Assembly (NCBI GenBank): GCA_041649715.1 | Contig: JBAZMP010000001.1 | Coordinates: 436,638-500,637 of the forward strand | Source of the DNA: Patescibacteria group bacterium | Lineage (GTDB): Bacteria > Patescibacteriota > Patescibacteriia > JAXHNJ01 | Length of the DNA stretch: 64,000 nt | Direction: 5' to 3' | Shown here: one piece after another, positions 10,244 through 39,746 of the stretch | Position numbering within the stretch: position 1 is the stretch's first letter | Layout: each line of letters starts with the position of its first letter | Notes under the pieces: generated by a model | Told to the model about the DNA's origin: nothing | The model's database searches: none | What the model saw: only the letters and a program-made list of their open reading frames with translations | Translations under genes and position numbers: made by a program

Positions 10244-10282
10244 TTGAAAATAACCGCATTTTTTGTTATAATAAATTCAATT

Positions 10283-11674
10283 ATGCTAGATATTAATAAT
10301 CTGAAAAATAAAAAAGTTTTGGTCATGGGCCTTGGTTTGCACGGCGGCGGAGTTTCCGTAGTCAAGTGGCTAGTAAAACAAGGCGCTCAAGTTACGGCCA
10401 CGGATTTAAAAATAAAGAAAGATCTATTACCGTCTTTAGCCAAACTTAAGGCTTTTAAGGTTAAATATGTTCTAGGCAGGCATAACCTGGAAGATTTTCG
10501 AAAAGCAGACCTAATTGTTCAAAATCCAGGCGTGCCGGCGAATTCCCAGTATTTAATCGCCGCGAAAAAGGCAGGTGTGCCAATTGAGAACGAGGCAACT
10601 CTTTTTTTCCGTCGTTGCCCGGCCCCTATCTTGGCGGTTACCGGCACCAAGGGCAAAAGTTCCCTGGTTTCTTTGCTTTTTCATGTTTTGAAAAGTAAGT
10701 TTAAAGATACGGTCATGGCCGGCAACATCCGCGATGTTTTGATGCTCGATGTTTTGCCAAAAATCAAAAAAAACACTAAAGTCATTTTGGAACTTTCTTC
10801 TTTTCAGCTTGAAGGTTTGGCCGGTTTAAAAAGAAGTCCGCATATCGCTTTTTTTACTAATATCATGCGTGATCATCTGAACCGTTATGGCACCATGCCC
10901 GTTTATATCAACGCAAAGTTAAATATGATCAAATTTCAAAATTCGAATGACTTTGCCGTTTTGAACGCCGATAATGCCTATACCCGCCGTTTTGCTAAAG
11001 AAACAAAAGCCAAGGTCTTCTGGTTTTCCCTCAATAAAAAAGTAAGCCCCGGCGCTTACCGGGAAAAAAACTGGCTGATTTTTACCGACGGTCACAAAAA
11101 AGAAAAAGTTTTACCTCTCGATAAATTGGACGTTTTGGCTGATTATCAGCGGGAACAGTTTTTAGCCGGCCTGATTGCCGGCAAGTTATTTGGCCTAAGT
11201 AACGGGATAATTTTTGAGGGTTTAAAAAGCTATAAAGGCTTGCACGACCGGCTGGAATTCATCAAAGAGATAAATGGTATAAAATATTATAATGATACGG
11301 CGGCCACCATGCCGGAGGCGGCCATCTCCGCCCTAAAGGCGTTGGGGAATTCAAAAAGGAAGAACATCGTCCTGCTGGCCGGTGGCGCCAATAAAAATTT
11401 GGTGTTCCAGGGTTTTTGTCGGCATATCGTAAGATATTGTAAAGCGGTAATTTTATTTAAAGGTCAAGCCAGTCTAATAATCGCTAAGCAGCTGGGAAAA
11501 AAAATAAAGCATGAAGTTGTTAAGAGCATGGAAGAGGCGGTCGGCCGGGCGGTAAAATTGTCACAAAAGGGTGATATAGTTTTGCTTTCGCCCGGCGCGG
11601 CCAGTTTTGGCCTCTTTAAACATGAGTTTGACCGTGGCGAACAATTTAAAAAATGCGTTAAACAACAAAAATAA
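10283..11674 (+). CDS. murD: UDP-N-acetylmuramoylalanine--D-glutamate ligase MurD. The ORF track starts at 10244; MLDINNL at 10283 is the more plausible start.
   Basis: VMGLGLHGGG Rossmann N-terminus, GTKGKSS P-loop, Mur ligase middle and C domains. Gene order mraY-murD-ftsW-murG-murC. Confidence 0.9.
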   Translation: MLDINNLKNKKVLVMGLGLHGGGVSVVKWLVKQGAQVTATDLKIKKDLLPSLAKLKAFKVKYVLGRHNLEDFRKADLIVQNPGVPANSQYLIAAKKAGVPIENEATLFFRRCPAPILAVTGTKGKSSLVSLLFHVLKSKFKDTVMAGNIRDVLMLDVLPKIKKNTKVILELSSFQLEGLAGLKRSPHIAFFTNIMRDHLNRYGTMPVYINAKLNMIKFQNSNDFAVLNADNAYTRRFAKETKAKVFWFSLNKKVSPGAYREKNWLIFTDGHKKEKVLPLDKLDVLADYQREQFLAGLIAGKLFGLSNGIIFEGLKSYKGLHDRLEFIKEINGIKYYNDTAATMPEAAISALKALGNSKRKNIVLLAGGANKNLVFQGFCRHIVRYCKAVILFKGQASLIIAKQLGKKIKHEVVKSMEEAVGRAVKLSQKGDIVLLSPGAASFGLFKHEFDRGEQFKKCVKQQK

Positions 11675-27904: not shown

Positions 27905-29365
27905 TTGTTTTTTAAGGAATGGGACAAAAATAAAAACAAAAAGAAAATGAGAACACACATCCGCTTTTGTTTAGTGGCTTTAATCCTTTTCTTAGGGATT
28001 ATTTTTTTATACCCCAAAAACGTTTCAGCCGCCGGCCAAATTGTGCCGGAGGTAAAAATTTTTGAGAACGGCGTTCAGACGAAGAGTTTCTATGGTTTTG
28101 ACCTGGGTTTTCGCGGCGGTGTGAGAGTTGCGACGGGAGATGTTGACGGGAATGGGGCTGATGAGATAATCGTCGCCGCGGGCGTAAACGGCGGACCGAA
28201 TATTCAGATTTTTAAGAATAACGGCGAAAAGATGATAAGTTTTATGGCTTACGATATAAAGTTTAGAAACGGAGTAAAAGTGACCTCCTGTGACGTTAAC
28301 AACGACGGTAGGGATGAAATTATAACCTCGCCGGGTTTAAGGGGCGGACCAAATGTCAAGATATTTAACGTTGGGGGCGAACAACTTAGAAGTTTCATGG
28401 CCTATGACATTAATTTTCGCGGCGGCGTCAATATCGGTTGCGGAGACGTTAACGCTGACGGCCTGGCGGAAATAATTACGGGAGCCGGTCCGGGTGGCGG
28501 CCCCCATGTTAGAGTTTTCAATCAAAAAGGCGAAAGTTTGAATATGGATTTTTTCCCGTTCAGTTTTAATAATAAAGGAGGGGTGAATATCGCTGTCGGG
28601 AATGTAACCGGCGATGAAAGACCAGAGATCATTGTTTCGGTTGCCCAATTTGGCGTACCGGTTATTGAGGTGTACGACGATCAATGGCATAAGCTTTCGG
28701 GTTTTTATGCTTATGACGTTGAATTTCAGGGCGGAGTAAATATAGCGACCGGCAATATTGATAATGACAATTATGATGAAATAATCGCGGCGGCCAATAC
28801 AGGCGCCGGACCTCATGTCCGCACCCTTGATTACTTAGGCAACAATCAGGAATTGAACTTTTTTCCCTATCCGGTTGATTTCCGCGGAGGAGTCTTTGTC
28901 GCCTCCGGCGACGTGATTGGCGACGGGAAGGATGAGATTATTACCGGACCGGGATTTTTAGCGGATACTCGTTATTCCCAGTACCCGAAATACATTGATA
29001 TCGATATTAGTGAACAAAAACTGAAGGTAATTGAGAACGGGCAGGAGATAGGTGATTATCAGATATCTTCCGGTAAACCGGGAATGGATACGCCCGGCGG
29101 AATTTTTACCGTTCTTAGCAAAAGCCCCACCGCCTATTCAAAAAAGTATGCCTTGTATATGCCATATTGGATGCAGTTCTCCGGCCAGGGCCACGGGTTG
29201 CACGGTCTACCGTATTGGCGCTTACGCGGTGGCGGCGTGATCAAGGAGGGAGAAAATCATTTAGGAATTCGTGTCTCGCATGGTTGCGTGCGTTTATCTT
29301 GGGAAGATGCAGAAATAGTTTATAATTGGGTCTCGATCGGCACACCAATAATTATTCATAACTAA
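27905..29365 (+). CDS. FG-GAP/VCBS-repeat beta-propeller fused to a C-terminal L,D-transpeptidase (YkuD) domain.
   Basis: Signal peptide plus TM, then about 7 repeats of GDV(D/N)GDGxDEIIxGxGxGGGPxV(K/R)(I/V)F. The C-terminus carries the SHGCVRL catalytic motif of L,D-transpeptidases. Confidence 0.8.
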   Translation: MFFKEWDKNKNKKKMRTHIRFCLVALILFLGIIFLYPKNVSAAGQIVPEVKIFENGVQTKSFYGFDLGFRGGVRVATGDVDGNGADEIIVAAGVNGGPNIQIFKNNGEKMISFMAYDIKFRNGVKVTSCDVNNDGRDEIITSPGLRGGPNVKIFNVGGEQLRSFMAYDINFRGGVNIGCGDVNADGLAEIITGAGPGGGPHVRVFNQKGESLNMDFFPFSFNNKGGVNIAVGNVTGDERPEIIVSVAQFGVPVIEVYDDQWHKLSGFYAYDVEFQGGVNIATGNIDNDNYDEIIAAANTGAGPHVRTLDYLGNNQELNFFPYPVDFRGGVFVASGDVIGDGKDEIITGPGFLADTRYSQYPKYIDIDISEQKLKVIENGQEIGDYQISSGKPGMDTPGGIFTVLSKSPTAYSKKYALYMPYWMQFSGQGHGLHGLPYWRLRGGGVIKEGENHLGIRVSHGCVRLSWEDAEIVYNWVSIGTPIIIHN

Positions 29366-29518
29366 ATATAATATTTATAATAAGATAGCTTGATGTAGTT
29401 ATCTTTTTTATATAACAATTTTTATCTTTGACAAAAACTATATCTAGCGCTAATTTTAAGGTCTTAAGTCGTTCATTCGCCACATTGTCAAATTTTCCGC
29501 CTAAAAGGAGGATTAATC

Positions 29519-29929
29519 ATGGAAGAGACAAGGGCCTATTACGAGATTAAGGTTACCGCCGGACTGGTGGTGATTACGGTTTACCGGGGCAAATATGACC
29601 GAGAAACTATTGGCTTGGCCGTGGCCAAATTGCTGGCTGATCGAAGATTAAGCCTTGCGAATCTTAAGGCCTATAAAGCGATTGTGCTCGATGTATCTAT
29701 GGTTGACATGAACAGTGCCGGTATCGGGGGCATAATTGCCCTGACTAAGAAGTATTCGCTTGCCTGCCCGGGCAAGAAGATCTACATCATTATCGGCAGG
29801 AACGAAAGGGTAAGGAATCTTATCAGGGTCACGCGATTGGATATTATCGTAACAGAGGTTCCGGCCGGATATAACGCTGGCAATATCGATGATTTTATCA
29901 AGCAAAAGGAGGCGGAAATAAGCCAATAA
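29519..29929 (+). CDS. STAS-domain protein (anti-sigma-factor antagonist-like).
   Basis: VLDVSMVDMNSAGIGGIIALTKK resembles the SpoIIAA/STAS core. It has a strong RBS (AAAGGAGG), its own promoter and its own terminator. Confidence 0.6.
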   Translation: MEETRAYYEIKVTAGLVVITVYRGKYDRETIGLAVAKLLADRRLSLANLKAYKAIVLDVSMVDMNSAGIGGIIALTKKYSLACPGKKIYIIIGRNERVRNLIRVTRLDIIVTEVPAGYNAGNIDDFIKQKEAEISQ

Positions 29930-29948
29930 TTCAAATGTTCTCTCCATA

Positions 29949-29983
29949 AATCCGCCCGATGTGAATGTCGCGCGGATTTTTTT
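29949..29983 (+). terminator. Rho-independent terminator.
   Basis: Stem AATCCGC/GCGGATT followed by TTTTTTT. Confidence 0.65.
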
Positions 29984-30043
29984 ATATTAAATATTGCATA
30001 TCATAATATAAATGTTATAATATTAATTGAAAGGGACAAATAT

Positions 30044-30829
30044 ATGGAAACATCATCTATTATAAACGAAGAAGTTAGATTCAAAAAATTAAGGATTTAT
30101 AATGTCGTCATGGCTATTTTTCACGCGATTCAGGGCGTATTGATGCTGGTTTTAAGTACTAGTTTTTCCTTGCCCGTGACTACGTCTTTTGTCCAATATA
30201 GCTCCACGGCCGGTAAGCTGGAACCGGTAATAAAGCAAGCTTTTGAAATAAGGCTCGGACTATTAGTCGCAATTTTTCTCTTTCTTTCCGCCCTGGCTCA
30301 TTTTTTGGTTTCCACGTTCTTTTATCGATGGTATGTGAATAATCTAAAGAGGGGGTTGAATTTGGCCCGTTGGATCGAATATTCTTTTAGCTCTTCGTTG
30401 ATGATCGTGGTTATCTCAATGTTGGTCGGGATTTATGATGGCGTAAGCCTAATGCTGATTTTCTTTCTTAATATGATGATGATACTTTTCGGCTGGCTGA
30501 TGGAAGTACATAATCAAACCACGCCAAAGATTAATTGGACTGCATTTATTTTCGGCTGTTTAGCGGGAGCCATTCCCTGGGTGGCAGTCGCCCTGTATTT
30601 GTTTGGTTCGGGAACGCCCGGAGCGAAACCGCCGACTTTTGTCTATTGGATCTTCTTTTCTATTTTTCTTTTCTTTAATATATTTGCCGTCAATATGGTA
30701 TTGCAATATAAAAAAACGGGTAAATGGCGAGATTATCTTTACGGCGAAAAGGTCTATATAATATTAAGTCTGGTGGCTAAATCATTGCTCGCCTGGCAGG
30801 TCTGGGCGGGAACGTTAAGGCCGGTCTAG
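30044..30829 (+). CDS. Heliorhodopsin (inverted-topology microbial rhodopsin).
   Basis: 261 aa, 7 TM. Close collinear match to heliorhodopsin 48C12: RWIEYSFSSSLMIVVIS vs RWVEYSLSSSVMIVLIA, ILFGWLMEV vs ILFGWLQEK, FGCLAGAIPW vs FGCIAGIVPW, and YGEKVYIILSLVAKSLLAWQVWAGTLRP vs RGERAYIVLSLVAKSALAWQIFSGTLIP. The retinal Schiff-base Lys in TM7 is conserved. Confidence 0.85.
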   Translation: METSSIINEEVRFKKLRIYNVVMAIFHAIQGVLMLVLSTSFSLPVTTSFVQYSSTAGKLEPVIKQAFEIRLGLLVAIFLFLSALAHFLVSTFFYRWYVNNLKRGLNLARWIEYSFSSSLMIVVISMLVGIYDGVSLMLIFFLNMMMILFGWLMEVHNQTTPKINWTAFIFGCLAGAIPWVAVALYLFGSGTPGAKPPTFVYWIFFSIFLFFNIFAVNMVLQYKKTGKWRDYLYGEKVYIILSLVAKSLLAWQVWAGTLRPV

Positions 30830-30917
30830 GAAAAACAATAAATAATGGAGCAAATCCCTTAGGCTCGCCGTTTTTCTGTTGCCAAAAGATCGAGTTTGAC
30901 ATATAATATATATTAAT

Positions 30918-32600
30918 ATGTCAATAAGACGTAAGGTTTGGTTAACTTTTTCCGGTATTATTCTACTCGCTGTATTAGCGGGTTTGCTTGATTACCCCAA
31001 AGGCCCGAATATTAAAATTGGCTCATATTTTAAGGAAATCAAAGTTCATCTGGGCCTGGACCTTTCTGGCGGTACCCGCTTGGTCTATCAAGCCGACACC
31101 GCCAACATAGCCGAAGCGGATAAGGCTTCCGCCTTGGATGGGGTTCGTGACGTCATTGAAAGACGGATTAACGCTTTCGGCGTTTCCGAACCGGTTATTC
31201 AGACCAACAAATCTGGAGAAAATTGGCGGGTAACCGTTGAATTACCTGGCATCACCGATATCAGCCAGGCAATAAAGCTTATCGGGGAAACGCCGCTTTT
31301 GGAATTTAAAGAAGAAGCCCCGGCGGCCGTTCTGTCGGATGAACAAAAAAAAGAAATCGAAGATTATAATAAGCAGGCGAAAGAGAAGGCCCTGGGGATG
31401 TTAGCGGAAGCACTAAAAAGCGGCGCGGATTTTGCCGCTTTGGCTAGCGAGTATAGCGAAGATCCGGGCAGTAAAGATCAGGGCGGTGATTTGGGCTTTT
31501 TTGGTGAAGGGGAGATGGTAGCTGAGTTTAACGAGGTGGCATTTAGCAAAGCGGTAAAAGGTGTGGTCTATCCGGAGCTCGTCGAGACGGTCTATGGTTA
31601 TCATATTATCTTAAAAACCGATGAAAAAGTGACCGATGGCAAAAAAGAGGTAAGGGCTTCTCACATTCTGATCCTTAAAAAAAGCGAAGCCGATTACCAA
31701 ACCGGCGAAGCGTACGTTGAGACCGGTCTTTCCGGCCAACAATTGCAAAGAGCCTTTGTGGAGTTTGACCAGAACACTGGAGCGCCGAGCGTCGGTTTGG
31801 AATTCAACGACGAGGGAAAGAAATTATTTTCCGACATTACTGAGAGAAATATTAATAAGATTGTCGCTATTTATCTGGATGGTTCTCCGATTTCATTGCC
31901 TACGGTAAATTCCAAAATTACGGAAGGAACGGCCGTCATTACCGGTAATTTTACTCTGACCGAGGCCAAGACCTTGGCTCAACGTCTAAACTCCGGGGCT
32001 TTACCCGTGCCCATCACTTTAATAAGTCAGCAGAATATCGGGGCCACTTTAGGTAAAATATCGGTTCAAAAAAGCTTGTTCGCCGGACTTTTAGGACTGT
32101 TTTCTGTCGCCTTCTTTATGATCATTTTTTACCGTTTACCCGGTCTTCTTTCCGTTCTCGCCCTCATTATTTATTCTTTAGTCGCGTTGGCCATTTTTAA
32201 GCTTTGGCCAGTGACCATGACCTTGGCCGGTGTCGCCGGTTTTATCCTTTCCATCGGTATGGCGGTGGATGCCAATGTATTGATTTTTGAACGGATGAAG
32301 GAAGAACTAGAGGCGGGAAAACCTTTGGATTTGGCAATTGAAGACGGATTTAAACGGGCCTGGCTTTCCATCCGTGATTCAAACGTTTCTTCCATTATCA
32401 CTTGTATTATATTGGCTTGGTTTGGAACAAGCTTAATAAAGGGATTTGCCATTACTTTAGCCATCGGCATCTTCGTTTCTATGTTCTCGGCGATCACGGT
32501 CACCCGAACTTTTTTAAGACTGATGGTCGGTCCCCGCTTATCCAGCCATTTGGCCTGGTTCGGCGTTAAACAAAATCATACACCAGAAAAAAATGTATAA
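30918..32600 (+). CDS. secD: Protein translocase subunit SecD with a parvulin-type (PpiC) peptidyl-prolyl isomerase domain inserted in the first periplasmic domain.
   Basis: SecD TM1, P1 domain and the C-terminal 5-TM core are present. Residues around 140-235 (GADFAALASEYSEDPGSKDQGGDLGFFGEGEMVAEFNEVAFS...VYGYHIIL) match the PpiC rotamase domain. Confidence 0.85.
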   Translation: MSIRRKVWLTFSGIILLAVLAGLLDYPKGPNIKIGSYFKEIKVHLGLDLSGGTRLVYQADTANIAEADKASALDGVRDVIERRINAFGVSEPVIQTNKSGENWRVTVELPGITDISQAIKLIGETPLLEFKEEAPAAVLSDEQKKEIEDYNKQAKEKALGMLAEALKSGADFAALASEYSEDPGSKDQGGDLGFFGEGEMVAEFNEVAFSKAVKGVVYPELVETVYGYHIILKTDEKVTDGKKEVRASHILILKKSEADYQTGEAYVETGLSGQQLQRAFVEFDQNTGAPSVGLEFNDEGKKLFSDITERNINKIVAIYLDGSPISLPTVNSKITEGTAVITGNFTLTEAKTLAQRLNSGALPVPITLISQQNIGATLGKISVQKSLFAGLLGLFSVAFFMIIFYRLPGLLSVLALIIYSLVALAIFKLWPVTMTLAGVAGFILSIGMAVDANVLIFERMKEELEAGKPLDLAIEDGFKRAWLSIRDSNVSSIITCIILAWFGTSLIKGFAITLAIGIFVSMFSAITVTRTFLRLMVGPRLSSHLAWFGVKQNHTPEKNV

Positions 32601-33646: not shown

Positions 33647-34765
33647 ATGAACGATCAAAATTCAATATTAGACAAAATAATAACCTCCAAGCAAACTGAA
33701 GACGTATCACAATTCAATCCCCAGGATAAAGTTTCCAGCTTCTTGAAATTAGTCAGTGACAAGGAGGGGGATATACTTCGCCGTCGCTACGGACTTAACG
33801 GGAAAAGAGAAGAAACTTTGGAAGAGATCGGCGGCATTTATGGCGTCACGCGGGAAAGAATCCGGCAGGTTGAAAATTTGACTTTGCAGAAGATAAAACA
33901 GGCTAAGGAATTTAACGGGCTTATCCAGACGGTTGAAGGGATAATCAGCAGTTTTCTCCATCAGCACGGGGGAATTATGGAAGAAGAGTATCTTTTTTGG
34001 AAAATACTTTCATTTTGTGGCGATTCAGAAATAAACCGGAAATCGCTTTCTTTTATTCTTACCCGGCTCTTGTCTGACAAATTCAAGAAAATCAAAAGTG
34101 ACACCATTAAACCTTCCTGGCTGCTCAAAAGCCAGAATCTTGATCTTTTAAATAAAACACATGAAGCTTTGCAGAAGATATTTGAGAATGAGAATAAACC
34201 CCTGGGTCAAGATGAAATTTTGGCAAAATTTAAGCTTACAGAAATTTATAAAGCCGAAAGCCAGTGGTTAAAGGATGAGGTGGTAATCTCCTATTTAAAA
34301 ACTTTTGCGAAAGTTTCTTCTAATCCGTTTGATGAGTACGGCCTGATTTCCTGGGGTTCCATCACCCCTAAGCGTATCAACGACAAGATTTATCTTATTC
34401 TGAAAAAAAATGGTCAACCCATGCATTTTACAAAAATCGCCGAGATGGTTAATAAGGCGAGTTTTGATGACAAAAAAGCTTATCCGCCCACCGTGCATAA
34501 CGAATTAATATTGAATGACCGTTACGTCCTGGTCGGACGCGGCATTTACGCCCTTAAAGAATGGGGCTATAAGCCGGGAGTAGTTATTGACGTACTGACG
34601 GAAATTTTAAAAAGCGAGAGCAGGCCATTAACTCGTGATGAAGTGATCAAAAAAGTGATGGAAAAAAGAATGGTCAAAAAAAATACTATCCTTCTTGCCC
34701 TGACCAATAAAGAAAGATTTAAAAAGCTGACGGATGGCACCTATACTTTGAATAATCCTCAATAA
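33647..34765 (+). CDS. Sigma-70 region-4-like HTH domain protein.
   Basis: TLEEIGGIYGVTRERIRQVENLTLQKI matches the sigma region 4 HTH. The remainder is uncharacterised. Confidence 0.5.
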   Translation: MNDQNSILDKIITSKQTEDVSQFNPQDKVSSFLKLVSDKEGDILRRRYGLNGKREETLEEIGGIYGVTRERIRQVENLTLQKIKQAKEFNGLIQTVEGIISSFLHQHGGIMEEEYLFWKILSFCGDSEINRKSLSFILTRLLSDKFKKIKSDTIKPSWLLKSQNLDLLNKTHEALQKIFENENKPLGQDEILAKFKLTEIYKAESQWLKDEVVISYLKTFAKVSSNPFDEYGLISWGSITPKRINDKIYLILKKNGQPMHFTKIAEMVNKASFDDKKAYPPTVHNELILNDRYVLVGRGIYALKEWGYKPGVVIDVLTEILKSESRPLTRDEVIKKVMEKRMVKKNTILLALTNKERFKKLTDGTYTLNNPQ

Positions 34766-34772
34766 TATTTTT

Positions 34773-36182
34773 ATGGATATTACGTTAGATTTTTCCACTG
34801 GCGGTTATGCGGACTCCTATTTAGGTCCGTTCTATACTTTGTGGATAATTATTGCTCATGGCGGTTGGGTCGCCCTCGTCATTGCTTTCATTATCGGTTT
34901 TTTCTTGCTTTGGTTGGAATGGCGGCGCAATCTGTTTGACGCCAAGGTAAAATTTATCTTGTTGGCCATTGATATTCCTAAGGAAAATGAGCAGACGCCC
35001 AAAGCCGTGGAAAACATATTTTCACACTTGCACGGCATTCAAAAAAGAGGCAATTTTATTGAAAAGTATATTGGTGGTTACACGCAGCAGTGTTTTTCTT
35101 TGGAGATTATCAGTATCGGCGGATATATCCAATTTCTTATCCGGACACCGGAGGACTGGCGAGATTTAGCCGAAGCCGCCATCTACGCCCAATACCCCAA
35201 TGCGGAAATTACTGAAGTGGAAGATTACACGAAAGATATCAAGATCAAGTTTCCTAATGATGATTATGACATTTGGGGGACGCACATGACCCTAGAGAAA
35301 AAAGACGTATATCCCATTAAAACTTACGTATCTTTCGAAGATCCTTCCACAAAAGAAACGTTTAAAGATCCCATGGCTTCTTTGCTGGAAATAATGAGCC
35401 GTTTAAAAGAGGGGGAGCAGATTTGGATCCAGATGGTAATTTCTCCTGAAGGGAGCAAGGAATGGCGTGATTCCGGTATTAGGGTTATTAAAAAGCTGAT
35501 CGGCGCCAAAACAGAGAGTAAAGGAAAGGATTTATTTTGGCTGCCTAAAAATGTCATCCACGGGGTTAGCGAATCGTTATATGCTTCTATTATCTCCCCA
35601 TCTGATTTATACGGAAGTACCGCCCAAAAGGAGATTCTAAGATGGCCGACCATGATTCAACATTTATCTCCCTCGGAAAGATCGGTCGTGGAGGCGGTCG
35701 GCATAAAAATTTCCAAAATCGCCTTCAAAACAAAAATGAGGGTCATCTACTTGGGCAAAAAAGAAGTTTTCAGCAAAAATCGTTTTGTGCCGGCCATTAT
35801 GGGAGCCCTTAAACAATATAATACTCTGGATATCAACGGTTTAAAGGCCGATGCCAAAACCAAGACCAAGGTGGATTATCCGCCGATAAAGTCGATTATA
35901 GAATGGCGCCAGAACCGGAGAAAATGGCGGGTCATGTGGGGCTATAAATACCGGAGCAGCACGCGCGGGCGTTGCAAGTTTGTTTTAAATATCGAGGAAC
36001 TGGCTACTCTTTTTCATTTTCCGATCATGACGGTGAAAGCTCCGATGGTTAAGAAAACGGAGGCGCGCAAAGCAGAACCGCCGGTCTCTCTGCCCTTGGA
36101 GCAGGCTTACCCCCTTCATAAAAAAAGCGAGGAAGAAATAAGCGAAGAGGAAAAAATTCCCCAGAATATTCCCTTTATTTAA
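34773..36182 (+). CDS. Membrane-anchored hypothetical protein, the partner of the downstream ATPase.
   Basis: N-terminal TM helix or helices (WIIIAHGGWVALVIAFIIGFFLLWL), then a 400 aa soluble domain with no recognised motif. It ends 6 nt before the ATPase gene. Confidence 0.5.
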   Translation: MDITLDFSTGGYADSYLGPFYTLWIIIAHGGWVALVIAFIIGFFLLWLEWRRNLFDAKVKFILLAIDIPKENEQTPKAVENIFSHLHGIQKRGNFIEKYIGGYTQQCFSLEIISIGGYIQFLIRTPEDWRDLAEAAIYAQYPNAEITEVEDYTKDIKIKFPNDDYDIWGTHMTLEKKDVYPIKTYVSFEDPSTKETFKDPMASLLEIMSRLKEGEQIWIQMVISPEGSKEWRDSGIRVIKKLIGAKTESKGKDLFWLPKNVIHGVSESLYASIISPSDLYGSTAQKEILRWPTMIQHLSPSERSVVEAVGIKISKIAFKTKMRVIYLGKKEVFSKNRFVPAIMGALKQYNTLDINGLKADAKTKTKVDYPPIKSIIEWRQNRRKWRVMWGYKYRSSTRGRCKFVLNIEELATLFHFPIMTVKAPMVKKTEARKAEPPVSLPLEQAYPLHKKSEEEISEEEKIPQNIPFI

Positions 36183-36187
36183 CACCT

Positions 36188-37897
36188 ATGACCTATCAGT
36201 CAAATACAACCGCCGATGACGTTACCCCGTTCGGCCTGACCAACTTTAGGAATCTCAGGCGGAAATTCGGCATTAAAACCGACGATCGACGCCGGCACAT
36301 GTATCTTATCGGAAAAACCGGTATGGGCAAATCGACGGTCATTGAAAACATGATTATTGATGATATCAAAAAGGGCAAAGGAGTGGCCCTGATCGATCCC
36401 TTGGGCGACCTAGTTGAAAAAGTGATAGATTTTATTCCGAGTTACCGGGTTAATGACGTCGTGTATTTCAACCCCTCGGATCTGGATTATCCCATTGCCT
36501 TTAACGTCCTTGAGTCAATTGATCCGACTCATCACCATTTAATAACTTCCGGTTTGATCGCCGTCTTTAAAAAAATCTGGGTCGATTCCTGGGGCCCACG
36601 TTTGGAGTATGTTTTGCGCAACACTATTTTGGCTCTTTTAGAATATCCGGGCAGCACATTACTGGGAGTGACGCGTCTGCTTGTGGACAAGGATTACCGC
36701 CGCAAAGTTGTCAGCCGTCTGACCGATCCGATCGTCAAAGCCTTCTGGCTGGACGAATATTCGGCCTATTCTAATCAGTTCCGCACCGAAGCGATCTCGC
36801 CTATTCAAAATAAAGTCGGACAGTTTTTGTCCAGCTCGGTAATAAGGAATATCGTGGGTCAGTCAAAAAGCACCATTGATATGCGAGAGATCATGGATAA
36901 CGGGAAAATCCTCCTTATGAATTTGGCCAAGGGTAGGATAGGCGAGGATAATTCTTCCTTGTTAGGCGCTATGATGGTGACAAAAATACAATTAGCGGCC
37001 ATGAGCCGGGTAGACACCCCAGAAGAACAAAGACGCGATTTTTATCTTTATGTCGATGAATTTCAGAATTTTGCTACGGAGAGTTTTGCCACGATTCTTT
37101 CCGAAGCGAGAAAATACCGGTTAAACCTGACCATTGCTCATCAATATATAGAACAACTGGATGAGAAAGTAGCGGCGGCTGTTTTCGGCAATGTGGGGAC
37201 CTTGGTGGTATTCCGTGTCGGGGCGGCCGACGCCGAATTCTTGCTCAAGGAATTTGAGCCGATCTTTACAGAAACGGACTTGGTCAATCTGACCAAGTTT
37301 GAGATATATTTAAAACTGATGATTGATGGTGTTTCCTCCGATCCCTTTTCCGCCCTTACCTTACCGCCTTTGCATGAGCAGGAAAATAATCATGAAAAAA
37401 TAATCTTGGTTTCACGGGAAAGATACACCAAGCCAAGGAAGGAAGTAGAGGAAAAAATTACTCGGTGGAGCGGCGTGGACGACATGTTCCGGGAAACGGC
37501 TCAGGAGGAAAATCGTGCGGAAGAAAGAAATCGTCCGGGCCGTAATTTTGAAGGCGGTAAAAGATTTAAACAGGGGGCGAGGTTTCCGGAAAAAGCTCGA
37601 CCCCAAGAAGAAGGCGGCCGGGAAGAAGAGCCGAAAATTGACCTAAGCAAGGCTAAACTGGAGCCGGTGGCCAGAGAAATAAATGAACCCCCCATTTCTT
37701 TAAGCGAGGCCTTAGCCCGCGGTTCAATTTCTTTCGGCGGAAAAAGTCAAAAGCCATTTCCCTCCCCGTCGCCTGATAGCCGTCCGGCAACCTATGCCCC
37801 GCCTGCCCGGTCAAATATTAACCCCAAAGATAACAGTTATGGATCACCTCAACCCTTAAGACGAGGTCAGGTGGTAAAATTTAACCCTAAATTTTGA
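36188..37897 (+). CDS. FtsK/HerA/VirD4-superfamily P-loop NTPase (DUF87/TraD-like) with a long disordered R/E/G/P-rich C-terminal tail.
   Basis: Walker A LIGKTGMGKST, then DPLGDL and YFNPSD...FNVL motifs reminiscent of VirD4/HerA. Walker B LYVDEFQNF. The C-terminal 140 aa are low-complexity. Confidence 0.6.
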   Translation: MTYQSNTTADDVTPFGLTNFRNLRRKFGIKTDDRRRHMYLIGKTGMGKSTVIENMIIDDIKKGKGVALIDPLGDLVEKVIDFIPSYRVNDVVYFNPSDLDYPIAFNVLESIDPTHHHLITSGLIAVFKKIWVDSWGPRLEYVLRNTILALLEYPGSTLLGVTRLLVDKDYRRKVVSRLTDPIVKAFWLDEYSAYSNQFRTEAISPIQNKVGQFLSSSVIRNIVGQSKSTIDMREIMDNGKILLMNLAKGRIGEDNSSLLGAMMVTKIQLAAMSRVDTPEEQRRDFYLYVDEFQNFATESFATILSEARKYRLNLTIAHQYIEQLDEKVAAAVFGNVGTLVVFRVGAADAEFLLKEFEPIFTETDLVNLTKFEIYLKLMIDGVSSDPFSALTLPPLHEQENNHEKIILVSRERYTKPRKEVEEKITRWSGVDDMFRETAQEENRAEERNRPGRNFEGGKRFKQGARFPEKARPQEEGGREEEPKIDLSKAKLEPVAREINEPPISLSEALARGSISFGGKSQKPFPSPSPDSRPATYAPPARSNINPKDNSYGSPQPLRRGQVVKFNPKF

Positions 37898-37901
37898 TAA
37901 T

Positions 37902-38975
37902 ATGGAAATCTCGCGTTTTAAGGAATGCAAAGAGCTTAATCTACATTTTTTTGAATGTCCAACCACTCTATTTTTATTGACCGGGTTCATCACCATAATA
38001 TTGATCTTATCCTCGTTTGTCATTGTTCGCCGTTATTATTCGGATGAAATAGTCTTTTTTATCTCGGTTTTTATTTCCGTGGTGATGATAATCATTTCGT
38101 ATTTTGTCCATGTCGGGACCAGCAAAGTAGCAAGCTCAAAAAAGAGACTGCAGGAAAGCAACAACAAGCTAAGTGAAACACTGATAAAATTAAAAGAGGC
38201 AGAAAAAAAACAAGATGAATTTACCCATTTAATGGTTCACGATCTGCGTTCACCCCTAAACGGAATCCGCATGGTTTCCGAGGTCATTCTCAATGATTTA
38301 AAAAAGCAGCACAAAAATGATCAGCTAGAACCCATTAATTTGATTAATGGTAACGCGGTTCATATGTTGACCCTAGTTAATGATATTTTGGATGTGGCCA
38401 AGATCGAAGCGGGAATGTTCAAACTGGAAAAAAAGAAAAGTGATTTTTCCCTGCTCGCCGCAGATATGGTCCGTTATTTTAAACCCCTCGCTTTAGGAAA
38501 AAACATCAAATTAGAATTGATTGTTGAAGAAAAATTGCCGCCGATAGAGTATGATGAAAGTGCCATGCGCCAGGTTTTTGAGAATTTAATCTCCAATTCT
38601 TTAAAATTTACCCCAGCCGGGGGCAGAATTCAGATTCAAATATTTAAGCATTCAAAGAAACACAATTTGAACGAAGAAGCGCAGAAGCTTCGGATCGAAT
38701 GGAATCTCAAGGGTGGCGATGAAAAATTGGATAACTACCCGGAATCTATCGTCGTCGGAATCACGGATAACGGCCAGGGCATCTCAATAATCGGCCTTTC
38801 TCGCCTTTTTAATAAATTCGAGCAGGCGGAGGGAAGAAGCAAAGGCACGGAAAGAGGAACGGGACTGGGTTTGATCATAGTCAAGGGTATTGTTGAGGCG
38901 CATGGCGGGATAGTGGGGGTGGCCTCTAAAGAATCGCAGGGAACAACCTTTTATTTTAATTTACCGATAAATTAG
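37902..38975 (+). CDS. Membrane sensor histidine kinase.
   Basis: Two TM helices, an HisKA H-box HDLRSPLNGI, and an HATPase_c G-box GTGLGLIIVKGIVEAHGG. Confidence 0.85.
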   Translation: MEISRFKECKELNLHFFECPTTLFLLTGFITIILILSSFVIVRRYYSDEIVFFISVFISVVMIIISYFVHVGTSKVASSKKRLQESNNKLSETLIKLKEAEKKQDEFTHLMVHDLRSPLNGIRMVSEVILNDLKKQHKNDQLEPINLINGNAVHMLTLVNDILDVAKIEAGMFKLEKKKSDFSLLAADMVRYFKPLALGKNIKLELIVEEKLPPIEYDESAMRQVFENLISNSLKFTPAGGRIQIQIFKHSKKHNLNEEAQKLRIEWNLKGGDEKLDNYPESIVVGITDNGQGISIIGLSRLFNKFEQAEGRSKGTERGTGLGLIIVKGIVEAHGGIVGVASKESQGTTFYFNLPIN

Positions 38976-38986
38976 GAAAATAATTT

Positions 38987-39364
38987 ATGGAACCAAAAAA
39001 AATATTAATCATCGAGGACGAAGCGGCTCTTCTTTATGCTTTCAAGGCTCGGCTTACGGTCGAGGGCCTGAATGTTTTGACCGCCAGTACCGCCGAAGAG
39101 GGTTTTGAAATAATAAAAAAGGAAAAGCCTAAATTGATACTTTTGGATTTGATCCTGCCCCAGATGGATGGTTTCAGTTTATTGAAAAAAATAAAAGCAG
39201 ACAGGAATTTTTCTCAAGTTCCCGTTATTATTATTTCCAATTTAAGCAAGAAGGAAAACATGGAAAAGAGTCTGAATTTAGGGGCCCAAGATTATATTGT
39301 CAAATCCGAGTTTAACTTGGACACCTTGATAGCCAAAGTTAAGGAGGTGGCGGACCATGTCTAA
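38987..39364 (+). CDS. Single-domain response regulator (receiver only).
   Basis: ILIIEDE...LDLILPQMDG...K receiver motifs, and no output domain. Confidence 0.8.
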   Translation: MEPKKILIIEDEAALLYAFKARLTVEGLNVLTASTAEEGFEIIKKEKPKLILLDLILPQMDGFSLLKKIKADRNFSQVPVIIISNLSKKENMEKSLNLGAQDYIVKSEFNLDTLIAKVKEVADHV

Positions 39365-39746
39365 TCCGACCAAAAGAATATTAATCATAGAAGATGATCC
39401 GGCTGAGCTTTTTGCTTTAAAAAAAACCGTTGGGGAAGCTGGTTATTCCGTTATTTCTGCCTCGGATGGCCAGACCGGCTTGGAAATGATAAAAAAAGAG
39501 CATCCCGATCTTGTTCTTCTGGATATAATATTGCCAAAAATAAATGGTTTCGACATATTGGAATTAACGAAAAAAGACAGCCAGACAGCTAATATCCCGA
39601 TCATCGTTTTGACCAATTTGAATGATGAAGAAACGTCCATTAAGTCAAGGACTCTCGGCGCAGCCGATCATTTGATAAAAAGTCAGGCTTACCCTCACGA
39701 TATTATCCGAAAAATAGATAATTTAGTCGGTCACGCGAACCCCTAA
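39357..39746 (+). CDS. Single-domain response regulator (receiver only).
   Basis: ILIIEDD...LDIILPKINGF receiver motifs. It overlaps the previous gene by 8 nt. Confidence 0.8.
   Translation: MSNPTKRILIIEDDPAELFALKKTVGEAGYSVISASDGQTGLEMIKKEHPDLVLLDIILPKINGFDILELTKKDSQTANIPIIVLTNLNDEETSIKSRTLGAADHLIKSQAYPHDIIRKIDNLVGHANP

What the first reader, a model, noticed from the sequence alone, without database searches (positions are those of the whole stretch)
29519..30829. Heliorhodopsin in a CPR-like genome, directly downstream of a stand-alone STAS gene
The 261 aa ORF matches the heliorhodopsin prototype 48C12 across all seven helices, including the TM7 Schiff-base lysine (SLVAKSLLAWQ). Heliorhodopsin function is still unresolved. 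Here it has its own promoter-like element and lies 115 nt downstream of a single-domain STAS (anti-sigma antagonist-like) gene that has its own promoter and terminator. If the host is a reduced-genome Patescibacterium, it probably cannot synthesise retinal, which raises the question of the chromophore source. The STAS adjacency suggests a candidate light-to-partner-switching link.
Basis: partly seen in the sequence, partly recalled or inferred. Interest (0 to 1): 0.6.

Follow-up and report, generated by a model that had tools for sequence, protein, structure and literature searches.

The report
Ordinary Patescibacterial heliorhodopsin, incidental STAS neighbour
The gene is a genuine but already annotated heliorhodopsin of a kind common in Patescibacteria, and the small STAS-fold gene in front of it is a rare, separately transcribed, lineage-specific neighbour, so a light-signalling pair is not supported.

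Summary

Neither point is new. NCBI already annotates this exact protein as "heliorhodopsin HeR [Patescibacteria group bacterium]". CPR heliorhodopsins and the exogenous-retinal question are both published.

- None of 80 related HeR loci has a homolog of the upstream gene.
- The two closest HeRs (86% and 82% identical) have YkuD directly followed by HeR.
- The pairing recurs in only one short contig.
- The other three members of this five-protein family sit in an unrelated conserved context next to a PCMT methyltransferase, one of them in the genome of the closest relative.
- A conserved intrinsic terminator separates the STAS gene from HeR.
- The 64-kb window has no partner-switching kinase or phosphatase.

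Interest is low.

The parts
29428..29456 (+). Weak promoter-like element upstream of the STAS-like gene (TTGACA, 17 nt, TAATTT)
   Evidence: Read directly from the sequence. The consensus scan did not report it because the -10 hexamer matches only 3 of 6 positions. Read-through from the YkuD gene cannot be excluded.
29504..29511 (+). Shine-Dalgarno sequence AAAGGAGG, 7 nt before the STAS-like ATG
   Evidence: Read directly from the sequence.
29519..29929 (+). 136-aa single-domain STAS-fold protein, identical to NCBI 'hypothetical protein WC528_02380'. It belongs to a five-protein, Patescibacteria-specific family. Ser66, in the motif DMNSAGIG, aligns with SpoIIAA Ser58.
29948..29984 (+). Intrinsic terminator of the STAS-like gene: a 12-bp interrupted stem followed by a T-run
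   Evidence: RNA fold -15.8 kcal/mol, z -2.47. It is conserved in L083, with an A:U to G:C change at the base of the stem.
29994..30021 (+). HeR promoter-like element: TTGCAT, 16 nt, then an extended -10 TGTTATAAT
   Evidence: Read directly from the sequence. The -10 block GTTATAATATTA and the RBS are conserved in L083. The strict scan did not call it.
30044..30829 (+). Heliorhodopsin, 261 aa. Key residues are H27, H86, E112 (counterion), S242 and K246 (Schiff base).
   Evidence: PF18761 336.6 bits. NF038020 345 bits. PDB TaHeR E 1.2e-82, 48C12 E 4.5e-62. Residue mapping. NCBI already names the identical protein 'heliorhodopsin HeR'.
30879..30907 (+). Promoter-like site of the downstream secD gene (TTGCCA, 17 nt, TATAAT; 11 of 12 matches). 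It marks the 3' limit of the HeR unit.
   Evidence: Consensus scan. No convincing terminator lies between HeR and this site (z 0.05).

Best explanation
This is a standard member of the large Patescibacterial heliorhodopsin clade, expressed as a single-gene unit.

Shown:
- It is a full-length HeR with the Schiff-base Lys (K246), the Glu counterion (E112), the two conserved His residues (H27, H86) and the SxxxK motif.
- A conserved terminator lies upstream, and HeR has its own -10 element and RBS.

Inferred from published work on relatives:
- It binds all-trans-retinal taken from the environment or a host cell, as shown for TaHeR, its nearest solved relative.
- Like other prokaryotic HeRs it does not pump ions. 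It acts as a slow-photocycle light sensor or regulator that modulates some cytoplasmic or membrane partner by direct contact.
- That partner cannot be read from this locus, because HeR neighbourhoods in this clade are essentially random.

The upstream gene is a real, purifying-selected, highly divergent single-domain STAS protein from a tiny clade-specific family. In the window lineage, and in one other known relative, a divergent copy lies between ykuD and HeR as an independent transcription unit. The most economical reading is a lineage-specific gene insertion or relocation into a variable spot, not a functional coupling with HeR.
For: HeR identity.

Already annotated, with thousands of relatives that are mostly Patescibacteria and Kerfeldbacteria.

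Published surveys:
- PMC9166423 found 98 HeRs in CPR genomes, with SLVAK the commonest motif.
- PMC8612252 covers HeR distribution and gene context.
- PMC9296517 reports that rhodopsin-encoding Saccharibacteria (CPR) lack blh and that retinal is likely sourced from hosts, and cites TaHeR as binding exogenous retinal.
- In PMC11109279, 61% of helR genes stand alone in their operon, and none of the ten recurrent neighbour groups is STAS.

Separate transcription units: terminator, conserved in L083 along with the HeR -10 element.

Adjacency is not conserved:
- No homolog of the STAS-like gene in 80 HeR loci by phmmer at E<=10 or by a family HMM.
- L003 and L086 have YkuD directly followed by HeR, with otherwise conserved synteny.
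- In a Pfam census, 149 immediate neighbours fall into 135 families with at most 3 members each. The next-but-one neighbours show no STAS either.

Family context: P0123, P0125 and P0126 lie in a conserved CAP - STAS-like - PCMT - NTP-transferase - YceG arrangement. P0125 comes from the same MAG as L003.

No partner-switching kinase or phosphatase in 64 kb.

The STAS-like gene is real: dN/dS 0.11, a strong RBS, and a confident fold.
Against: The STAS-HeR order recurs in L083. There the STAS protein is 77% identical, HeR is 76% identical, and synonymous sites are near saturation (dS 1.19). So the arrangement has persisted for some time in at least one sublineage.

By N-terminal HeR identity, L083 is no closer to the window than the STAS-less L003 and L086 are. 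This would also fit an ancestral pair that some lineages lost.

The HeR-linked copies form a distinct subfamily, about 30% identical to the PCMT-linked ones. That pattern is what neofunctionalisation would also produce.

The complete genome could not be searched, so distant partner-switching genes and retinal-synthesis genes are not excluded.
Confidence: 0.8

Rival explanations
1. Functional pair: in this sublineage a duplicated STAS protein has been recruited as the cytoplasmic transducer of HeR. Light-induced changes in the HeR cytoplasmic face would bind or release the STAS protein, which would pass the signal on by partner switching, possibly through phosphorylation of Ser66.
For: - The pair, with the same intergenic layout, occurs in two genomes about 23% apart at protein level.
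- The HeR-linked copies form their own subfamily and are under purifying selection.
- Ser66 is invariant and aligns with the SpoIIAA phospho-serine.
- Characterised HeRs do regulate soluble partners encoded next to them (PMC9529153, PMC9769723, PMC11109279).
Against: - A conserved terminator separates the genes, whereas the known HeR partners are co-transcribed with HeR.
- 0 of 80 related HeR loci have the gene.
- The closest HeRs, at 82% and 86% identity, lack it although flanking synteny is conserved.
- No anti-sigma kinase, PP2C phosphatase or canonical sigma factor is nearby.
- Two genomes that share a gene order are also explained by common descent.
Confidence: 0.1
2. The STAS-like protein works with something other than HeR. 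It could act as a generic small regulator, or as a nucleotide- or lipid-binding module, as MlaB and the SLC26 STAS domains do. Its position next to HeR would then be a relocation of the PCMT-linked family gene with no change of function.
For: - Three of the five family members lie in a conserved CAP - STAS-like - PCMT - NTP-transferase - YceG context.
- No partner-switching genes are in the window.
Against: - The HeR-linked copies are only about 30% identical to the PCMT-linked ones, which is more than relocation alone would predict.
- A terminator-like gap also separates the PCMT-linked copies from PCMT (136-186 nt), so that association is itself unproven.
Confidence: 0.08
3. This HeR is a light-driven or light-gated ion transporter, like the viral V2HeR3, rather than a sensor or regulator.
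For: One viral HeR transports protons (PMC9448325). This gene stands alone, as a transporter could.
Against: It belongs to the TaHeR/48C12-like prokaryotic group, at 54% and 47.5% identity with the same E/H/H/S/K residues. From established knowledge (Pushkarev 2018; Shihoya 2019), no transport was detected for that group.
Confidence: 0.02

Closest known systems
TaHeR, heliorhodopsin of Thermoplasmatales archaeon SG8-52-1 (PDB 6IS6, 7U55)
   Same: 54% identity over 250 aligned residues, with one 4-residue indel. The Schiff-base Lys, counterion Glu, both His residues and the SLVAK motif are the same. Both hosts are thought to lack retinal synthesis, and TaHeR takes up exogenous retinal (as cited in PMC9296517).
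   Different: The host is bacterial (Patescibacteria), not archaeal. This protein has a 4-residue longer loop (GTPG, residues 189-192). No biochemical data exist for it.
48C12, the prototype heliorhodopsin (PDB 6SU3)
   Same: 47.5% identity over residues 13-260. H27, H86, E112, S242 and K246 correspond to H23, H80, E107, S237 and K241.
   Different: It is more distant than TaHeR, with several loop indels.
Published CPR/Patescibacteria heliorhodopsins (Chiriac et al. 2022, PMC9166423; Bulzu et al. 2021, PMC8612252)
   Same: The same clade and the same SLVAK motif. The host has the same type of reduced genome. NCBI names dozens of the top hits as Patescibacteria or Kerfeldbacteria HeR.
   Different: Nothing substantive. 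This is one more member, and it is already annotated.
HeR-partner operons (AbHeR-glutamine synthetase PMC9529153; TfHeR-photolyase PMC9769723; OcHeR-OmrDE PMC11109279)
   Same: A HeR gene lies next to a gene for a soluble or cytoplasm-facing protein that it could regulate by contact.
   Different: Those partners are co-transcribed with HeR and recur across taxa. Here a terminator intervenes, and the neighbour is found in only 2 known loci. STAS is not among the ten recurrent neighbour groups (PMC11109279).
SpoIIAA / RsbV single-domain anti-sigma-factor antagonists (STAS, PF01740)
   Different: Identity is 13-20%, below the Pfam and TIGRFAM cutoffs. There is an extra C-terminal helix (residues 123-135). 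No cognate kinase, phosphatase or sigma operon is nearby.

Membership tests
Heliorhodopsin (Pfam PF18761 / NCBIfam NF038020) | Full-length profile match above the curated cutoff | tested here: met
   PF18761 scores 336.6 bits against a cutoff of 26.7, covering profile positions 1-242 of 242. NF038020 scores 345.2 bits against a cutoff of 100.
Heliorhodopsin (Pfam PF18761 / NCBIfam NF038020) | Retinal Schiff-base lysine in TM7 within an SxxxK motif | tested here: met
   S242 and K246 in SLVAK align with 48C12 S237 and K241, and with the corresponding TaHeR lysine.
Heliorhodopsin (Pfam PF18761 / NCBIfam NF038020) | Single Glu counterion in TM3 and the two conserved His residues (48C12 E107, H23, H80) | tested here: met
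   E112, H27 and H86 align exactly with those residues. The residue roles come from established knowledge of 48C12 and TaHeR.
Heliorhodopsin (Pfam PF18761 / NCBIfam NF038020) | Seven transmembrane helices | tested here: met
   An alignment with a single 4-residue gap covers residues 10-259 of the solved 7-TM TaHeR chain. A crude hydropathy scan gives hydrophobic blocks along the whole length.
Heliorhodopsin (Pfam PF18761 / NCBIfam NF038020) | Inverted topology (cytoplasmic N-terminus) | tested here: inconclusive
   The only support is the positive-inside heuristic (R12, K14, K15, R17 before TM1) and homology to TaHeR. No topology predictor or experiment was available.
Heliorhodopsin (Pfam PF18761 / NCBIfam NF038020) | Binds all-trans-retinal and shows a visible absorbance band and a slow photocycle | not testable with these tools
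   This needs heterologous expression and spectroscopy.
STAS / anti-sigma-factor antagonist (PF01740, TIGR00377) | Sequence-profile match above the curated cutoff | tested here: not met
   PF01740 scores 12.3 bits (E 0.15) against a cutoff of 22.6; the homolog P0002 scores 19.9 bits. TIGR00377 scores 20.8 bits against 53.45. A 3-sequence profile finds no STAS protein in the PDB.
STAS / anti-sigma-factor antagonist (PF01740, TIGR00377) | STAS (SpoIIAA-like) alpha/beta fold | tested here: met
STAS / anti-sigma-factor antagonist (PF01740, TIGR00377) | Phosphorylatable Ser at the N-terminus of helix 2 (SpoIIAA S58) | tested here: met
   S66 is invariant in all 5 family members. It starts helix 66-82 in the model. 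Phosphorylation itself was not tested.
STAS / anti-sigma-factor antagonist (PF01740, TIGR00377) | Cognate partner-switching genes (RsbW/SpoIIAB-type kinase, PP2C phosphatase, regulated sigma factor) in the same locus | tested here: not met
   The Pfam content of the whole 64-kb window shows none. The only kinase is a HisKA/HATPase_c histidine kinase 8 kb away. The only sigma-like gene has region 4 plus a HARE-HTH domain. The rest of the genome could not be searched.
HeR-partner regulatory operon (HeR with glutamine synthetase, photolyase or ABC transporter) | Partner gene co-transcribed with helR | tested here: not met
   An intrinsic terminator lies between the genes and is conserved in L083. 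HeR has its own -10 element and RBS.
HeR-partner regulatory operon (HeR with glutamine synthetase, photolyase or ABC transporter) | Adjacency recurs across related genomes | tested here: not met
   The gene is present in 0 of 80 GTDB loci and absent in L003 and L086. It is present only in L083. The rest of the family is not next to HeR.

The most novel reading that the evidence does not exclude
In one narrow Patescibacterial sublineage (the window genome and the L083 organism), a divergent paralog of a clade-specific STAS protein has been captured next to heliorhodopsin. It would serve as HeR's cytoplasmic signal transducer, which would be the first link between a heliorhodopsin and partner-switching-type signalling.
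Probability: 0.08. Interest if true: 0.6.

Novelty: already known. Interest (0 to 1): 0.15.

Why it matters
It matters little as it stands. Heliorhodopsins in CPR bacteria, their SLVAK motif, their lack of conserved neighbours and their dependence on external retinal are all published, and this exact protein is already labelled HeR in NCBI.

The useful outcome is negative. The tempting STAS-HeR 'light to partner-switching' idea does not survive a comparison with about 85 related loci, so it should not be propagated.

Two small by-products may be worth keeping. First, a five-member, Patescibacteria-specific family of very divergent STAS-fold proteins is now defined; it escapes Pfam and has two distinct genomic contexts. 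Second, methionine sulfoxide reductase is the most frequent gene near HeR in this clade, in line with the published oxidative-stress hypothesis.

Tried and rejected
- Pfam and NCBIfam on the STAS-like ORF gave only sub-threshold hits. A 3-sequence profile against PDB sequences returned only chance hits such as RpoB and arrestin, at E>0.1.
- Exhaustive phmmer over 1.84e9 cluster representatives found only 2 real relatives; the third hit, P0124, matched only a 27-residue stretch and was not followed up. A profile search added 2 more.
- A JGI metagenome scan with the family alignment recovered only the locus already known for P0123.
- The afdb50 fold library was unavailable.
- The consensus promoter/terminator scan did not report the terminator after STAS or either promoter-like site. 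They were assessed by folding and by alignment instead.
- No convincing terminator lies after HeR.
- Horizontal transfer of the STAS-like gene, tested by composition: GC 0.47 and GC3 0.56 are high but within the range of neighbouring housekeeping genes (secA is 0.475 and 0.57), so there is no signal.
- The idea that the STAS-like ORF is spurious is rejected: dN/dS is 0.11, it has a strong RBS and the fold is confident.
- Looking up window protein 10244-11674 by exact sequence failed because the start codon differs. A neighbouring gene was used instead.
- No tRNA or Rfam element is in the window.

Full report
**Observation**

The 261-aa protein is unambiguously a heliorhodopsin.
- Pfam PF18761 gives 336.6 bits across the whole profile.
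- The NCBIfam HeR equivalog model gives 345 bits against a cutoff of 100.
- Among solved structures the best match is TaHeR (6IS6, E 1.2e-82, 54% identity), ahead of the prototype 48C12 (6SU3, E 4.5e-62, 47.5%).
- H27, H86, E112, S242 and K246 align one-to-one with 48C12 H23, H80, E107, S237 and K241. These are the two conserved histidines, the counterion, and the SxxxK Schiff-base motif. The residue roles come from established knowledge of 48C12 and TaHeR.

**Host and context**

NCBI holds the identical protein as 'MAG: heliorhodopsin HeR [Patescibacteria group bacterium]', and the upstream protein as 'hypothetical protein WC528_02380' from the same organism.

The window encodes typical Patescibacterial housekeeping genes: mur/ftsW, type IV pilus ATPase and platform, secA, secDF, ribosomal proteins and many glycosyltransferases. 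It has no tRNA or Rfam hits. No carotenoid or retinal gene (crt, blh) appears in the 64 kb; the only isoprenoid-related gene is lytB/ispH.

**The upstream gene**

By sequence it is almost an orphan.
- It has no Pfam hit at E<=0.01. PF01740 STAS scores 12.3 bits (cutoff 22.6) and TIGR00377 scores 20.8 bits (cutoff 53.45).
- Exhaustive phmmer over 1.84 billion cluster representatives finds two real relatives.
- A profile search over 5.8 billion proteins brings the family to five members, all unannotated or named Patescibacteria.

It is nevertheless a real gene.
- It has an AAAGGAGG ribosome-binding site.
- Compared with its 77%-identical homolog in L083, dN/dS is 0.11 at dS 1.19.

Ser66 in DMNSAGIG is invariant in all five members. 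It begins the second long helix.

So 'stand-alone STAS' is right as a fold and as a resemblance, but the sequence-family thresholds are not met.

**Transcription signals**

The STAS-like gene is followed by a good intrinsic terminator: hairpin 29948-29979 plus a U-run, -15.8 kcal/mol, z -2.47.

HeR is preceded by TTGCAT, 16 nt, TGTTATAAT (29994-30021) and an AAGGG ribosome-binding site. In L083 the terminator, the -10 block and the RBS are all conserved, even though synonymous sites are near saturation. One stem base pair there changes from A:U to G:C.

The two genes are therefore separate transcription units. The STAS gene's own promoter is weak (TTGACA, 17 nt, TAATTT). The consensus scan reported none of these sites.

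**Is the pairing conserved?**

I fetched 80 HeR loci (49-82% identical) from GTDB species representatives, mostly Patescibacteria, Kerfeldbacteria and Saccharibacteria, with a few Actinomycetota.
- None contains a homolog of the upstream gene, whether by phmmer at E<=10, by a five-sequence family HMM, or by rough SpoIIAA/RsbV probes.
- A Pfam census of the 149 immediate neighbours gives 135 different families with at most three members each.
- The 133 next-but-one neighbours are equally scattered. The most frequent are methionine sulfoxide reductase (6), ABC ATPases (5) and GT2 glycosyltransferases (5). STAS is not listed.

The two closest HeRs are the most telling.
- L003 (82% identical) keeps the window's gene order: YkuD - HeR - SecD - SecF - sigma70_r4/HARE-HTH - DUF8128. 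There, ykuD is followed by HeR after 103 nt with no STAS gene.
- L086 (86% identical) shows the same arrangement.
- Both instead have a membrane-anchored Gmad2 Ig-like gene immediately after HeR, which the window lacks.

The flanks of HeR are therefore a site of gene turnover even among close relatives.

The pairing recurs in only one place. L083, a 1,020-nt Logan contig, has STAS-like (77%) - terminator - HeR (76% over the 146 residues present).

**Where the rest of the STAS-like family lives**

P0123, P0125 and P0126 are about 30% identical to the window protein. All three lie in a conserved CAP-domain gene - STAS-like - PCMT protein methyltransferase - NTP-transferase - YceG arrangement, with no HeR on the contig.

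P0125 comes from GCA_043812155.1, the same MAG as L003. So the closest relative carries a family member elsewhere in its genome and none at its HeR locus.

The HeR-adjacent copies (window and L083) form a distinct subfamily. The simplest history is a duplication or relocation into the ykuD-HeR spacer in one sublineage. Base composition gives no signal of foreign origin.

**Partner-switching machinery**

Nothing in the 64 kb resembles an RsbW/SpoIIAB kinase, a PP2C/SpoIIE phosphatase or a regulated alternative sigma factor.

The nearest signalling genes are a HisKA/HATPase_c kinase and two single-domain response regulators, 7-9 kb downstream (37902-39746). This is the loose 'within 10 kb' type of association that Bulzu et al. 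reported for HeRs (PMC8612252). I have no evidence that it is specific here.

**Comparison with the literature**

- CPR heliorhodopsins are documented. Chiriac et al. found 98 in CPR genomes, with SLVAK the commonest TM7 motif, and proposed a role in oxidative-stress mitigation (PMC9166423).
- Bulzu et al. analysed HeR gene contexts across phyla, including Patescibacteria. They mention STAS only in passing, as a domain associated with DICT (PMC8612252).
- Jaffe et al. showed that rhodopsin-bearing Saccharibacteria lack blh, argued that retinal comes from hosts, and noted that TaHeR likewise binds exogenous retinal rapidly (PMC9296517).
- The Nat Commun 2024 study (PMC11109279) classified helR neighbours into ten recurrent groups, none of which is STAS. 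It found about 61% of helR genes alone in their operon, which is the class this gene falls into.
- A full-text search for heliorhodopsin together with STAS finds only the Bulzu paper.

**Mechanism and verdict**

The most likely picture, at about 0.8 confidence, has three parts.
- The gene is a monocistronic, TaHeR-like heliorhodopsin. It loads scavenged all-trans-retinal on K246, with E112 as counterion.
- It acts as a slow light sensor or regulator on a partner that this locus does not reveal.
- The STAS-fold neighbour is an independently transcribed, lineage-specific gene whose adjacency is historical rather than functional.

Identity, residues, transcription signals and non-conservation of the pairing are shown here. 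Retinal uptake and the sensor role are inferred from published work on relatives.

The functional-pair reading keeps roughly 0.1 probability, because the arrangement is maintained in two diverged genomes and the HeR-linked copies form their own subfamily. I rate the finding as already known and of low interest.

Noticed in passing
window 30918-32600 (+); also L003 7567-9249: The SecD protein carries a parvulin-type PPIC rotamase domain (aa 146-236, PF13616 80 bits). It is inserted between the SecD N-terminal P1 segment and the P1 head. The same 560-aa architecture occurs in the closest relative (85% identity). A translocon subunit with a built-in foldase may be worth a separate look.
   Followed up: no
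80 HeR loci L003-L082, genes within two positions of HeR: Methionine sulfoxide reductase (PF01625) is the single most frequent family near HeR: 2 immediate and 6 next-but-one neighbours out of 282 genes. This fits the published oxidative-stress idea for HeRs.
   Followed up: partly
L003 6759-7430; L086 1406-2050: In the two closest relatives a membrane-anchored Gmad2 Ig-like protein (PF10648, 46 bits) is encoded immediately after HeR, with a 4-nt gap in L086. This could be a co-transcribed pair. The gene is absent from the window, where secD follows HeR after 88 nt.
   Followed up: partly
L084 142-543, L090 8001-8420, L091 2645-3046: The other three members of the STAS-like family lie in a conserved arrangement: CAP-domain gene (divergent strand) - STAS-like - PCMT protein-isoaspartate methyltransferase - NTP-transferase - YceG. 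The family (invariant S66, G68, PGK 84-86 and EVP 113-115) is invisible to Pfam.
   Followed up: partly
window 33647-37897 (+): A 372-aa protein has only sigma-70 region 4 plus a HARE-HTH domain. It is followed by a DUF8128 protein and a VirD4/TraG-like coupling ATPase. The first two genes are syntenic in L003 (the L003 locus ends within DUF8128), so this looks like a chromosomal module rather than a mobile element.
   Followed up: no
window 37902-39746 (+): A HisKA/HATPase_c histidine kinase and two single-domain response regulators lie 7-9 kb downstream of HeR. This is the kind of loose proximity cited in the literature as support for a sensory role of HeR. No specific link is shown here.
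   Followed up: no
record titles of L007, L008, L015, L023, L040, L041 and proteins P0029, P0053: Many close HeR relatives come from MAGs named after groundwater or deep-subsurface sites (NC_groundwater, Crystal Geyser CG_, Rifle RIFCSP, SURF). A light sensor in organisms from nominally dark habitats is odd.
   Followed up: no
L004, L011, L012, L029, L052: Several third-party MAG records titled 'uncultured Gammaproteobacteria bacterium' carry Patescibacteria-type HeRs (62-73% identical). HeRs are reported to be restricted to monoderms (PMC8612252), so these titles are probably placeholder or wrong taxonomy.
   Followed up: no
window 27905-29365 (+): The gene upstream of the STAS-like ORF encodes an L,D-transpeptidase (YkuD) fused to a long run of FG-GAP repeats behind a signal anchor. 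It is conserved next to HeR in L003 and L086.
   Followed up: no
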